A stretch of 52,974 nucleotides of DNA, taken from a virus (taxonomy: Duplodnaviria; Heunggongvirae; Uroviricota; Caudoviricetes). The position numbers are program-made. The DNA is taken from positions 1 to 52,974 of IMG/VR virus record IMGVR_UViG_2802429234_000005; one strand, given 5' to 3'. Of the stretch, positions 1 through 3,000 are shown in pieces (positions within the stretch are counted from its first letter, which is position 1; each line of letters begins with the position of its first letter).

Positions 1-3000
1 TTATTTCACTTCAACCACATTCAGCCGTAATTCATCCAGCTGATTCTCATCTTCTTCAGGCTGCCAGCCCGCAGGCTGTAGTGGGATATCTTCGCGATCA
101 AACGCCAGATCACCGCCGTTAACCACTTCGGAACCGTGGGTAATGCCTTTGAAATCGAAAAGAGTGGTATCGCACAAATGAGACGGCACAACATTCTGCA
201 TCGCGCTGAACATCGTCTCAATTCGCCCCGGATAACGCTTATCCCAGTCACGCAGCATATCGGCAATCACCTGACGTTGCAGGTTAGGCTGTGAACCGCA
301 AAGGTTGCACGGAATAATCGGAAACGCTTTCGCATCGGCAAAACGTTGAATATCTTTTTCGCGGCAGTAGGCCAGCGGACGAATCACGATATGTTTGCCA
401 TCATCGCTCATCAGTTTCGGCGGCATACCTTTCATCTTGCCGCCGTAGAACATATTCAGGAACAACGTTTGCAGGATATCGTCACGATGGTGACCCAGCG
501 CGATCTTCGTCGCACCCAGCTCCGTTGCCGTGCGGTAAAGGATACCGCGACGCAGACGAGAGCACAGTGAGCAGGTAGTTTTGCCCTCAGGAATCTTCTC
601 TTTCACGATACCGTAAGTGTTCTCTTCAACAATCTTGTACTCAACGCCCAGCTTTTCGAGATACTCCGGCAGAACGTGTTCCGGGAAGCCAGGTTGTTTC
701 TGGTCGAGGTTAACGGCAACCAGCGAAAAACTGATTGGCGCACTTTGCTGCAAATTACGCAAAATCTCCAGCATGGTATAGCTGTCCTTACCACCGGAGA
801 GGCAAACCATAATGCGATCGCCATCTTCAATCATATTGAAGTCAGCAATGGCTTCGCCTACGTTACGACGCAGACGTTTTTGCAATTTGTTCAGGTTGTA
901 TATCTCTTTCTTCGTATTCTTTTGATTTTCTTGCATTATTTCAGTTCTCTGGTACTAAATGGGGCAAATTGGGGGCAAACTTTGCAACTACGATAACCGC
1001 GCATTCAACATAGCTACCTGTTCGTCGTTCATGTCATCAATCCACATACCGTAAATTTCATACACCATCTGCGCAGTTTCATGCCCCATCTGGCTGGCTA
1101 TAAATGCCGGGTTCGCTCCTGCCGTCAACAGCCAGCAGGCAAAAGTATGTCGCGTATGGTACGGATTACGGCGGCGAATACCAGCACGTTTTACTGCTGC
1201 ATTCCATCTCGCACCCAAACTGCTTACCGAGTAATAAGGTTTCTGTTTTCCGTTACACATCCTGGGCATGAAAACAAAATGCAGTTTTTGCTTTTCGGTT
1301 CTGCCGTACTCCCGATGATAAAAAGTGATTTCGCTTTTGCGATGATGCCCGGTCAGTTTGTATTGCTCCTTCAGTGCTTCAAGAGCTGGCTGTAGTAGTG
1401 TTACCGTCCGGATCCCCGCATTTGTTTTTGGGGGACCGAACATATCAAGTATCGTCAGGTTTCTTCTGACATTCACAATTCCCTTCTCGAAATCCACATC
1501 CTCCCACGCCAGAGCAGCCAGTTCCCCGTGACGAAGCCCGGAGTAAACGGCAAATTTCCACAAGTTCTGGCTCTGTCCTTTTTCACTTTCCATTAATGCA
1601 TTGAATTCTGTTTTAGATAACGGATCAGGCTTTATTCTGTTTCGCTGTAATTTTTTTACTCCTTCAAATGGTTTGGTTGATATAAATCCCGACTGATACG
1701 CAAAACGTAACAACGAACAGAGCAGGGCGATATAGTTATCAACTGTGCGCACGGTTCTTCCTTTTTTGTTGGATCTTGGATTATCCAGGTAAAATGTTTC
1801 TCCATGCAGCAGTTCATTCCGGTAGTTTAAGATATCGCTATAACGAATATGTGATATTGGGGTACTCTCACAAATTATTATCCTGAGTGTTTTTAATTGT
1901 GATTTCGTTTTCTTCATTGTGTTTGTTGTTAACTCTGTCTCTTTAATTTTTGTCCAGATATCACAAAGCTCCCCGAACGTTTTTATGACCCTCGTTGTCA
2001 CCATTTTTGCCCCAGTACTGGACTGGGGAAAACGTCTTAAATACTCAAATTCACCGGAGTTGATTTCATGAACTATCAACGCTCTTAAATTCCCGGCCTT
2101 TTTAATGTTACTGTTAGTAACCTCCCAGCCTTTCAATGTTTCCCGACATCGTTTTCCTCGAAACATGAACCAGATGCGAATGTATTTACCTCGAATCTCG
2201 ACACCTGTTGGTAATTTAGACATATCATGAGTCTTTGATAAACTGATTTATCTTTGGATAGTTGTACCAGATAATCCCTCGCTTACTGTCTGGCTTCCCT
2301 AAAGGAGATACTCGTTTGAAGTGGAAGCCTTCTACCCAACAGTTCTGGCGGTATGCTTCAATTTGTCTGGCTCCCAGACCAGTGCGAAGCATCAGGCCGT
2401 ATTCAACCATCCACTCTTCATTAAAGATTACTTGTGCCATCGCATCACCTCTGGCAGGCGCCAATGTTAGACTGAAATTGACGCCCGATGTTGATTATTA
2501 ATAATCAGCTATGAAGTTTTAATTTGAATACAATGCAATTCACGAAGATTGAAGTTTCTCGCAATTAAAATTTATAAGTTTTACTTTCTGCTCTCTGGAA
2601 ACACCAGCTTCTTTTTTCCCTGAGAGCATTTTTTCGCATTCCGATTTGGTTAACTTTGTTGTTGAGTACCTTGTCCAGCTGGTAGGAGAACCTCCTTCCT
2701 TTTCAATAGTGGCGGTAATTTTATACATGAACACCTCCATTATTATTTCCAGTAGTTCGTTTATTCCATCTTTCGAGAGCTTCTTTTTCACTTCCACCAT
2801 AGCCGGTTCGGGATTCGCATCCGTTACACTTCGCGCGGTAATATCCTGAAATGGCTTTCACCGTTACTGATGGACAACCACAAAAAGGGCATGGTTTGAC
2901 TTTTTCATACCGCATTGTCTTTTCTCTCATAAAATAAAATTTTTTGATGGCGGTGGGACTACACCGCCAAAGTAAATATCAGGAGCCGATATATTCTGGT

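What the first reader, a model, noticed from the sequence alone, without database searches (positions are those of the whole stretch)
937..990. Integration into the ttcA 5-prime end and ATGGGGCAAA-type motifs at both window ends
Only 51 bp separate the ttcA start from the integrase stop, implying the phage supplies the ttcA 5-prime end and promoter. The motif AAATGGGGCAAA occurs at 957..968 and again at 52887..52898 (with further GGGGCA variants at 52905..52925), and CGATAACC at 979..986 is mirrored by GGTTATCG near 52938..52946. These may be att core or arm-type recombinase sites; the right junction is probably at or beyond the window end.
Basis: partly seen in the sequence, partly recalled or inferred. 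Interest (0 to 1): 0.4.

Follow-up and report, generated by a model that had tools for sequence, protein, structure and literature searches.

The report
Rac prophage attachment site in ttcA
This is the already described left junction of a Rac-type prophage inserted in the start of the host gene ttcA; the repeated GGGGCA motifs at both window ends are most likely the integrase's accessory ("arm") binding sites, not the crossover point, so the finding is real but ordinary.

Summary
The window is a Rac-family prophage (about 98% identical to Escherichia phage Rac-SA53) integrated in ttcA, probably in Escherichia ruysiae.

**Observation.** The 51-bp gap between the ttcA start (936) and the intR stop (988) is real. 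AAATGGGGCAAA occurs at 957, 52886 and 52916, with variants at 968, 52905 and 52875.

**Crossover.** Comparison with an empty site, and with contigs identical to the window that run past its end, puts the crossover in TTGTTCAGGTTGTAT. That is window 887..901, inside ttcA codons 12-17. The second copy lies 59 nt beyond the window end and is followed by the native ttcA 5' fragment and uspF. The phage therefore supplies ttcA codons 1-12 and all upstream DNA. This is published (Liu et al. 2015) and is annotated in the Rac-SA53 GenBank record.

**GGGGCA motifs.** They are absent from attB and all point the same way. They occur as pairs 11 bp apart at fixed distances from the core. They are conserved next to IntR-like integrases down to about 44-50% identity, whatever the target gene, including phage 933W. 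IntR carries an arm-binding domain (PF12167).

**Verdict.** These are arm-type integrase sites of a lambda-like attP. This is known biology, with an apparently unreported but expected detail.

The parts
1..936 (-). Hybrid ttcA (311 aa). The host part, up to about 886-901, differs by 1 nt from E. ruysiae ttcA. Codons 1-12 come from the phage.
   Evidence: ORF and Pfam PP-loop hit. 1 mismatch in 901 nt against E. ruysiae L127. About 7.5% evenly spread mismatches against K-12 and the empty site up to position 883.
887..901 (.). att core identity block TTGTTCAGGTTGTAT, shared by attL, attB and attR. It covers ttcA codons 12(3rd base)-17. Strand exchange probably occurs within 890..901.
   Evidence: Comparison of attL (window), attB (L001) and attR (L116, window-equivalent 53033..53047). 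The last host-specific mismatch is at 883 and the first phage-specific mismatch at 902. The Rac-SA53 record annotates a 26-bp att at the equivalent of 887..912.
902..936 (-). Phage-supplied ttcA 5' end (start codon and codons 1-12). It gives [12 protein letters not shown] instead of the native MSQNQEISKKEQ, six substitutions.
   Evidence: Window translation against the native 5' fragment left at attR and the empty site. Liu et al. 2015 (PMC4632033) report the same phenomenon in K-12.
915..927 (+). IHF-like site TATTCTTTTGATT, one mismatch to YAANNNNTTGATW, between the core and the P' arm sites.
   Evidence: Read from the sequence. PMC8407004 reports an IHF GeF-seq peak and the consensus TAAnnnnTTGATW at this position of K-12 Rac attL.
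937..987 (.). 51-bp spacer between the ttcA start and the intR stop. It is the P' arm of attL and the 5' leader of the hybrid ttcA.
   Evidence: No promoter-like or terminator-like site was found here.
957..968 (+). P'1 candidate arm-type IntR site, AAATGGGGCAAA. Its GGGGCA lies 71 nt after the first base of TTCAGGTTGTAT.
   Evidence: The same +71 position is seen in 18 of 19 distinct attP sequences (+70 in L110) and by eye at the same place in the ttcA-integrated relatives from five other genera.
968..979 (+). P'2 candidate arm-type IntR site, ATTGGGGGCAAA, 11 bp after P'1.
988..2223 (-). intR, a tyrosine integrase of 411 aa with an N-terminal arm-binding domain.
   Evidence: PF12167 Arm-DNA-bind_2 (residues 5-69, E 2e-26) and PF00589. 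99.3% identical to Rac-SA53 IntR. Tn1549 Int is the best solved-structure match.
991..998 (+). It is the last sense codons of intR (R-L-S). It is the reverse complement of the P-arm GGTTATCG.
2225..2440 (-). xisR (ydaQ) excisionase, 71 aa as called in identical contigs.
   Evidence: PF06806 DUF1233, E 9e-21. Gene calls in L121-L126. Liu et al. 2015 showed that YdaQ/XisR drives Rac excision and shifts an attR fragment.
52875..52886 (+). Degenerate P-arm site TATGGTGGCAAA, at -157 from the core. It is a full GGGGCA site in PHB10-type attP.
52886..52897 (+). P-arm candidate arm-type site AAATGGGGCAAA, at -146 from the core.
52905..52916 (+). P-arm candidate arm-type site AAAAGGGGCAGA, at -127 from the core.
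52916..52927 (+). P-arm candidate arm-type site AAATGGGGCAAA, at -116 from the core.
52939..52958 (+). Period-10 tandem repeat TTATCGTGGC / TTGTTGTAGT directly after the last P-arm site.
   Evidence: Alignment of attR arms. An analogous period-10 repeat with a different sequence occupies the same place in PHB10-type, L103 and L113 attP. XisR binds an attR fragment. The assignment itself is inferred.
52972..52974 (+). First 3 nt of an IHF-like site, TAACACATTGAAA, that runs past the window end. The attR core follows at window-equivalent 53033..53047.
   Evidence: Extension read from L116, which is 100% identical over the last 2297 nt of the window.
52807..52974 (+). 55-aa ORF whose stop defines the window end. 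It spans the P-arm repeats and is probably a spurious gene call.
   Evidence: The ORF is absent, or differs in frame and length, in 10 related attR arms.

Best explanation
The interval 937..990 is the int-proximal (P') arm of the attL junction of a Rac-family lambdoid prophage. The motif cluster at 52875..52958 is the distal (P) arm carried at attR.

**Integration.** The phage attP carries a mimic of the first 17 codons of ttcA. IntR, a heterobivalent tyrosine recombinase, exchanges strands inside the shared block TTGTTCAGGTTGTAT (887..901, most likely within 890..901). After integration the host ttcA body is fused to phage-borne codons 1-12 and phage upstream DNA. The native 5' fragment and the native upstream region are displaced to attR, 59 nt beyond the window end, next to uspF.

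**The motifs.** The GGGGCA motifs are arm-type sites bound by the N-terminal PF12167 domain of IntR. There is one pair 11 bp apart in P', and two pairs 11 bp apart, separated by 19 bp, in P. All point the same way.

**Accessory sites.** Together with IHF-like sites on both sides of the core and a period-10 tandem repeat after the last P site (candidate XisR sites), they would assemble the integrative and excisive intasomes as in phage lambda.

**What is shown and what is inferred.** Shown here: the junction positions, the motif positions and their conservation, and the domain content. Inferred: physical binding of IntR, XisR and IHF to these particular sequences, and the exact overlap region.
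For: **Junction**
- The empty site L001 has ttcA next to uspF.
- Five contigs identical to the window's last 2297 nt continue into CCCTTAC-TTGTTCAGGTTGTAT-TGTTCTTTCTTACTAATTTCTTGATTTTGCGACAT and then uspF.
- One sample (SRR3972138) holds contigs identical to both window ends.
- Host-type divergence stops at 883 and phage-type sequence starts at 902.
- Rac-SA53 (98.2% identical) annotates a 26-bp att at the same place. K-12 Rac has the same layout.
- Published: Liu et al. 2015.

**Arm sites**
- Enrichment P about 1e-10.
- Conserved block in 11 E. coli attR arms.
- Virion-derived phage PHB10 (Int 69% identical) has a contiguous attP with 4+2 sites at the same distances.
- 19 distinct attP sequences carry 89 GGGGCA sites, none on the opposite strand, at about -158/-146/-127/-116 and +71/+82. 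Background is 1.8e-4 per strand-bp.
- In an unbiased protein-based search, every IntR relative from 99% down to about 50% identity has the 11-bp-spaced pair at its int stop. This holds for ttcA-integrated elements in Enterobacter, Citrobacter, Pluralibacter and Hafnia, and for elements at other targets.
- Phage 933W (Int 43.5% identical, wrbA target) has one pair in the int-proximal arm and three pairs in the distal arm.
- IntR has the Arm-DNA-bind_2 domain. This N-terminal segment is the best-conserved part of the protein in distant relatives.
- IHF binding at K-12 attL is reported in PMC8407004.
Against: - There are no binding or mutational data for IntR on these motifs, and none were found in the literature searched.
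- The IMG/VR attP set was retrieved with a pattern that demanded one GGGGCA per arm, so only the additional copies count as independent evidence.
- Many of those contigs carry truncated int genes.
- Some relatives lack one or more P-arm sites: an 11-nt deletion in 2014C-4423, and a single exact GGGGCA (one pair remains if the GATGGCA half-site is counted) in L097 and L102. Not every site is indispensable, or those elements are defective.
- The IHF-like sites each carry one mismatch.
- No promoter for the hybrid ttcA was identified.
Confidence: 0.85

Rival explanations
1. The AAATGGGGCAAA repeats are the att core, the direct repeat at which the phage and host DNA cross over.
For: The 12-mer is an exact direct repeat near both ends of the prophage.
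Against: - The motif is absent from the empty site.
- The real shared block TTGTTCAGGTTGTAT is at 887..901 and at window-equivalent 53033..53047.
- The motifs lie on the phage side of both junctions.
- The same motif flanks integrases that use other target genes.
Confidence: 0.02
2. The repeats are binding sites for a protein other than the integrase arm domain, for example XisR, a phage repressor, or a regulator of the hybrid ttcA or of int. Alternatively they are promoter elements for ttcA.
For: - The P' pair lies 21-44 nt upstream of the ttcA start codon, in DNA that must carry the ttcA leader.
- XisR shifts an attR fragment in EMSA. The fragment boundaries relative to the repeats are not known to me.
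Against: - The motif is present on both arms at fixed distances from the core and tracks the integrase family across different targets and different Xis or neighbouring genes.
- The most conserved part of the integrase is its arm-binding domain.
- A separate lineage-specific period-10 repeat is a better candidate for Xis sites.
- No sigma-70-like promoter overlaps the pair.
Confidence: 0.08
3. The right-end repeats are coding sequence of a small protein (the 55-aa ORF 52807..52974, repeating MGQ/KGA), and the left-end copies are a coincidence.
For: An ATG-initiated ORF spans the cluster and its stop coincides with the window end. PGAP annotates a 57-aa hypothetical protein over the same region in K-12.
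Against: - Among 11 related attR arms the ORF is absent in three. Where one exists it is 12-57 aa long and is read in at least two different frames relative to the motif.
- Indels are not multiples of three.
- Motif spacing changes from 11 to 12 bp in PHB10-type phages.
- The same motif also occurs in non-coding P' arms.
Confidence: 0.02
4. The motif recurrence is chance in A-rich intergenic DNA.
For: One of 100 shuffles gave 4 matches at one mismatch or fewer for the 12-mer.
Against: - Positional clustering P about 1e-10.
- Identical positions and orientation across lineages whose spacers have diverged.
Confidence: 0.01

Closest known systems
Rac prophage of E. coli K-12 and Escherichia phage Rac-SA53 (KU052037.1): IntR/XisR, att site in ttcA
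   Same: - Same integrase (99.3% to Rac-SA53 IntR) and the same xisR.
- Same target and core, and the same replacement of the TtcA N-terminus.
- Same ttcA 5' fragment (ttcC) next to uspF at the other end.
- Same GGGGCA clusters in both arms (PMC4632033).
   Different: - The host ttcA allele is that of Escherichia ruysiae.
- The phage att carries ATC instead of TGT at 902..904. Identity with attB is therefore 15 bp rather than the 26 bp seen in K-12, and six TtcA residues differ from native rather than the four reported for K-12.
- The prophage is full length (about 52 kb) rather than the 23-kb K-12 remnant.
Phage lambda attP/Int/Xis/IHF intasome (the paradigm of arm-type and core-type sites)
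   Same: - A heterobivalent tyrosine integrase with an N-terminal arm-binding domain.
- Arm sites on both sides of a short core.
- Order in the distal arm: arm sites, then tandem RDF-type repeats, then an IHF-like site, then the core.
- An IHF-like site between the core and the int-proximal arm sites.
- int and xis adjacent to the P' arm.
   Different: - The arm-binding domain belongs to a different Pfam family (PF12167, not the lambda-type N-domain).
- The arm motif is GGGGCA, arranged as 11-bp-spaced pairs: 2 pairs distal and 1 pair proximal, against 2 + 3 single sites in lambda (from my own knowledge).
- The core lies inside a protein-coding gene whose 5' end the phage replaces.
- Binding has not been demonstrated.
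IntBPP-1 subgroup of arm-binding tyrosine recombinases (Smyshlyaev et al. 2021, PMC8138268), which includes Stx2a-phage and Gifsy-2 integrases
   Same: The arm-binding domain is annotated DUF3596/PF12167. 933W Int is 43.5% identical and its arms carry the same GGGGCA pairs.
   Different: Subgroup membership is inferred from the Pfam domain and from similarity to 933W Int only. The subgroup's beta-strand insertion in the catalytic domain was not examined.
Prophages that rebuild the gene they insert into (e14 and phage 21 in icd; Gifsy-1 in lepA)
   Same: The phage att carries a copy of the end of the target gene, so the gene stays intact after integration (PMC4632033 introduction; PMC6379469).
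   Different: Here the 5' end is replaced, start codon and upstream region included, not the 3' end. The gene's transcription signals therefore also become phage-derived.

Membership tests
Rac-family prophage integrated at ttcA | IntR-type integrase directly upstream of ttcA on the same strand | tested here: met
   intR at 988..2223 (-), 51 bp from the ttcA start. RefSeq annotates the matching E. coli loci as intR and ttcA. 99.3% identical to Rac-SA53 IntR.
Rac-family prophage integrated at ttcA | Crossover inside the ttcA 5' coding region at the annotated 26-bp att | tested here: met
   The Rac-SA53 att at record 722..747 equals window 887..912. The host/phage boundary lies between 883 and 902.
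Rac-family prophage integrated at ttcA | Native ttcA 5' fragment (ttcC) and uspF at the other prophage end | tested here: met
   Outside the window, but present in five contigs identical to its last 2297 nt. Core at window-equivalent 53033..53047 (from the TTCAGG offset 53036), followed by the native 5' fragment and uspF.
Rac-family prophage integrated at ttcA | Altered TtcA N-terminus in the lysogen | tested here: met
   [12 protein letters not shown] against the native MSQNQEISKKEQ. Liu et al. 2015.
Lambda-type attachment site with arm-type integrase sites | Tyrosine recombinase catalytic domain | tested here: met
   PF00589, E 3e-23. Aligns to Tn1549 Int, including the RHTF and GH...Y motifs.
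Lambda-type attachment site with arm-type integrase sites | Separate N-terminal arm-binding domain in the integrase | tested here: met
   PF12167 Arm-DNA-bind_2, residues 5-69, E 2e-26.
Lambda-type attachment site with arm-type integrase sites | Repeated motif on both phage arms, absent from attB and unlike the core sequence | tested here: met
Lambda-type attachment site with arm-type integrase sites | Arm motif follows the integrase lineage rather than the target site | tested here: met
   GGGGCA pairs sit next to IntR relatives at ttcA and at other targets, and in 933W. The N-domain is the best-conserved segment.
Lambda-type attachment site with arm-type integrase sites | Accessory sites for IHF between the arms and the core | tested here: inconclusive
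   One-mismatch consensus matches at 915..927 and at 52972 onward. IHF binding at K-12 attL is reported by GeF-seq, but not at attR.
Lambda-type attachment site with arm-type integrase sites | Excisionase gene and its binding sites in one arm | tested here: inconclusive
   The xisR gene is present (PF06806) and XisR shifts an attR fragment. The period-10 repeat at 52939..52958 is only a candidate site.
Lambda-type attachment site with arm-type integrase sites | Physical binding of the integrase N-domain to the arm motif, and a requirement for it in recombination | not testable with these tools
   Needs EMSA or footprinting and att-site mutagenesis.
IntBPP-1 subgroup of tyrosine recombinases | DUF3596/PF12167 arm-binding domain | tested here: met
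   Subgroup definition taken from PMC8138268.
IntBPP-1 subgroup of tyrosine recombinases | Beta-strand insertion between strands 2 and 3 of the catalytic domain | not tested
   No structure prediction was run.

The most novel reading that the evidence does not exclude
The GGGGCA pair is a shared arm-site code for the whole PF12167 (IntBPP-1-type) integrase clade, from Rac to Stx phage 933W.

- Co-resident prophages of this clade, for example Rac-like Sp10/CP-933R and Stx phages in O157:H7, could then cross-bind each other's arms and influence each other's integration or excision.
- Because the P' pair sits 21-44 nt upstream of the hybrid ttcA start codon, IntR occupancy could also tune expression of the rebuilt host gene.

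Neither idea was found in the literature searched.
Probability: 0.15. Interest if true: 0.45.

Novelty: already known. Interest (0 to 1): 0.2.

Why it matters
**Practical value.** It fixes the prophage boundaries for this window.
- The true attL core is 887..901, inside ttcA.
- attR lies 59 nt past the window end.
- The 55-aa end ORF is flagged as spurious.
- The terminal repeats get a functional label.

**Biological value.** The integration site and the TtcA N-terminal swap are published, so the finding adds little there.

**Modest added value.**
- The arm-site layout consists of GGGGCA pairs 11 bp apart, 2 pairs distal and 1 pair proximal.
- The same motif accompanies related integrases regardless of their target gene. 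This could help automated attP/attL/attR delimitation for this large integrase clade, which includes Stx phages.

Tried and rejected
- **Protein-based scan of viral contigs with IntR.** It gave 80 loci at 98-100% identity, mostly cut at the int stop, so it was useless for conservation analysis.
- **Integrases beside the 19 IMG/VR attP contigs.** Most are truncated or are remnants, for example L100. Covariation between the arm domain and the motif could not be tested on that set. The genome-contig scan was used instead.
- **Consensus promoter and terminator scan of 800..2600, plus reading the minus strand by eye.** No sigma-70-like promoter was found for the hybrid ttcA within about 900 nt and no terminator after intR. 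The promoter question stays open. Co-transcription with intR is only the simplest guess.
- **Literature searches for IntR arm-type sites, Rac-SA53 and PF12167/DUF3596.** No description of these arm sites was found. This library lacks most subscription-journal papers, so absence is weak evidence.
- **The CGATAACC/GGTTATCG inverted pair as a functional element.** The shared stretch is 9 nt here and 11 nt in Rac-SA53. The left copy is constrained as the last intR codons. The right copy varies in O157 and O103 relatives and is missing in PHB10-type attP. I leave it unexplained.
- **Two scripts failed or printed nothing.** The cause was a wrong assumption about file layout.
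Full report
**1. What is at the coordinates**

ttcA occupies 1..936 on the minus strand. A 411-aa tyrosine integrase occupies 988..2223 on the same strand. The spacer 937..987 is exactly 51 bp.

AAATGGGGCAAA is exact at three places:
- 957..968;
- 52916..52927.

Close variants lie at 968..979 (ATTGGGGGCAAA), 52905..52916 (AAAAGGGGCAGA) and 52875..52886 (TATGGTGGCAAA).

All copies are on the + strand. Five exact GGGGCA fall in 92 bp at the two ends, where 0.026 are expected from the rest of the window (P about 1e-10, boundaries chosen post hoc).

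It forms the last sense codons (R-L-S) of the integrase. Its reverse complement is at 52937..52944.

**2. Identity of the element**

- The integrase region is 98.2% identical in DNA to Escherichia phage Rac-SA53 (KU052037.1), and the protein is 99.3% identical.
- RefSeq annotates the equivalent E. coli loci as intR next to ttcA.
- IntR carries PF12167 (Arm DNA-binding domain, residues 5-69, E 2e-26) and PF00589.
- The next gene is a DUF1233 excisionase, xisR/ydaQ.
- The host part of the window (1..901) differs by one base from the ttcA of Escherichia ruysiae. It differs by about 7.5%, evenly spread, from E. coli K-12 and from an empty-site E. coli.
- From 887 on, the window is nearly identical to Rac-SA53, with one mismatch up to 1000.
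- The last host-type difference is at 883 and the first phage-type difference at 902. That brackets the junction independently of any annotation.

**3. The core and the right junction**

An empty site (strain CFSAN051542) has ttcA directly followed by uspF. It reads ...TTTTTGTAAT-TTGTTCAGGTTGTAT-TGTTCTTTCTTACTAATTTCTTGATTTTGCGACAT.

The window reads ...TTTTTGCAAT-TTGTTCAGGTTGTAT-ATCTCTTTCTTCGTATTCTTTTGATTTTCTTGCAT.

Looking up the last tail-fibre-assembly protein of the window by exact sequence returned five contigs that are 100% identical to the last 2297 nt and continue beyond it:
- 59 nt after the window end comes CCCTTAC-TTGTTCAGGTTGTAT-TGTTCTTTCTTACTAATTTCTTGATTTTGCGACAT. This is the native ttcA 5' fragment.
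- It is followed by the native upstream region and uspF.

One sequencing run (SRR3972138) contains contigs identical to both window ends.

Conclusions from this comparison:
- The block common to attL, attB and attR is TTGTTCAGGTTGTAT, at window 887..901 and window-equivalent 53033..53047.
- The Rac-SA53 record annotates the corresponding 26 bp as att. K-12 Rac has all 26 bp identical.
- In the window's phage, positions 902..904 differ (ATC against TGT), so exchange must occur left of 902.
- PHB10-type phages read TTATTCAGG, which suggests exchange right of 889.
- I therefore infer that the overlap region lies within TTCAGGTTGTAT (890..901). This is an inference.

The phage thus supplies ttcA codons 1-12, the start codon and all upstream DNA. 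TtcA begins [12 protein letters not shown] instead of MSQNQEISKKEQ.

This is what Liu et al. 2015 described for K-12 Rac (PMC4632033) and what later papers repeat.

**4. What the GGGGCA motifs are**

They are absent from attB and lie on the phage side of both junctions, so they are not the core. Five lines of evidence say they are arm-type integrase sites.

(i) *Conservation in E. coli attR arms.* In eleven E. coli attR arms of 76-90% identity, the block GGCAAAAATGGGGCAAAA...AAAAGGGGCAAAAATGGGGCAAAAAAAG is conserved while the sequence upstream of it is not.

(ii) *A contiguous attP from a virion.* Phage PHB10 was found through its integrase, which is 69% identical. It has four sites, then 113 bp, then TTATTCAGGTTGTAT, then a ttcA-like start, then two sites, then the int stop.

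(iii) *A wider attP set.* Nineteen distinct attP sequences (18 from IMG/VR plus PHB10) carry 89 GGGGCA sites.
- Positions are about -158, -146, -127 and -116, and +71 and +82 (some also +99), relative to TTCAGG.
- None is on the opposite strand.
- Background is 1.8e-4 per strand-bp.
- The window's sites sit at -157, -146, -127, -116, +71 and +82.
- The search pattern forced one site per arm, so only the other roughly 53 sites are independent evidence.

(iv) *An unbiased protein-based scan of one genome per species.* Every IntR relative had a pair of GGGGCA 11 bp apart at its int stop.
- About 70% identity, all in ttcA: Enterobacter, Citrobacter, Pluralibacter, Hafnia.
- About 50-54% identity, at other targets: Leclercia, Silvania, Enterobacter, Escherichia sp. 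ESNIH1, with a degenerate GGGACA/GGGGGC pair in Buttiauxella.
- Phage 933W (Int 43.5% identical, wrbA target) has one pair in the int-proximal arm and three pairs in the distal arm.

(v) *Conservation of the arm-binding domain.* In the distant relatives the N-terminal 70 residues are the best-conserved segment. Identity is 0.51-0.69, against 0.34-0.45 for residues 71-200. This is what one expects if the arm motif is kept while core specificity changes.

**5. Rest of the architecture (inferred)**

- *P' side.* Between the core and the P' pair lies TATTCTTTTGATT (915..927), one mismatch from the IHF consensus. An IHF GeF-seq peak is reported at this place in K-12 attL (PMC8407004).
- *Candidate XisR sites.* Directly after the last P-arm site lies a period-10 tandem repeat, TTATCGTGGC/TTGTTGTAGT (52939..52958). 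Other lineages have a different period-10 repeat at the same place. XisR shifts an attR fragment. I therefore take these as candidate XisR sites.
- *P side.* An IHF-like TAACACATTGAAA starts at 52972 and runs off the window.
- *Overall order.* Arm sites, then RDF-type repeats, then an IHF-like site, then the core, then an IHF-like site, then arm sites, then int. This is the lambda order.

**6. Open points**

- No sigma-70-like promoter and no terminator were detected between intR and ttcA. 'The phage supplies the promoter' is logically required but unlocated. Read-through from intR is the simplest guess.
- A promoter-like site and the uspF terminator remain with the orphan 5' fragment at attR.
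- The 9-nt inverted match GGTTATCGT between the P arm and the end of intR is unexplained.
- The 55-aa ORF that ends the window is not conserved in frame or length among relatives and is probably spurious.

**7. Verdict**

- The integration reading is right and already published.
- The 'core' reading of the motifs is wrong. The 'arm-type site' reading is well supported by comparison but untested biochemically.
- I found no paper describing these arm sites. They are an expected feature of a known kind of system.

Noticed in passing
window 1..901: The host ttcA allele differs by 1 nt from Escherichia ruysiae (L127) but by about 7.5% from E. coli K-12. The window therefore probably comes from E. 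ruysiae or a very close relative. Logan SRR3972138 contigs are identical to both window ends.
   Followed up: partly
L156 70..95 and L157 190..280 (phage 933W, AF125520.1): 933W has the same GGGGCA pairs 11 bp apart. One pair lies inside the 3' end of int and three pairs in the distal arm. The motif seems general for PF12167-type integrases whatever their target.
   Followed up: partly
window 52937..52945 (+) and 990..998 (-): A 9-nt inverted repeat GGTTATCGT links the P arm and the last codons plus stop of intR. It is 11 nt in Rac-SA53 and NRZ103545. It is not conserved in PHB10-type attP and varies in O157/O103 relatives.
   Followed up: partly
window 52807..52974: A 55-aa ORF spans the P-arm repeats and its stop defines the window end. 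Its frame and length are not conserved in relatives. PGAP annotates a similar 57-aa hypothetical protein in K-12. It is probably a spurious gene call.
   Followed up: yes
window 19045..19930: Three phage-borne tRNA genes: Thr-TGT, Gly-TCC, and a Tyr-like gene with the unusual anticodon ATA.
   Followed up: no
window 46942..47531: Long arrays of 21-nt periodic repeats (SETNAK/SQTAAK-like heptads) inside a tail-fibre gene.
   Followed up: no
window 2979..4031: The RecT-family protein here is 350 aa, against the 269-aa RecT of K-12 Rac. The recombination module differs from the K-12 remnant.
   Followed up: no
L096-L114 (IMG/VR contigs), e.g. L100 4746..5240: Many contigs carry a contiguous ttcA-type attP (P arm, core, P' arm) next to a truncated integrase fragment. 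In L099, L110 and L111 the first P' site is fused to internal int sequence. These look like decayed integration modules kept inside other elements.
   Followed up: partly
L095 (E. coli 2014C-4423) and L097/L102: Some relatives have lost P-arm sites: an 11-nt deletion removes one site, and L097 and L102 keep a single exact GGGGCA (one pair if the GATGGCA half-site is counted). Whether these prophages can still excise is unknown.
   Followed up: no
L116 4501..4573 (beyond the window end): The displaced native ttcA upstream region at attR keeps a promoter-like site (CTGACA-17-TACCAT) and the uspF terminator. It could transcribe the orphan 17-codon ttcA fragment into the phage P arm.
   Followed up: no
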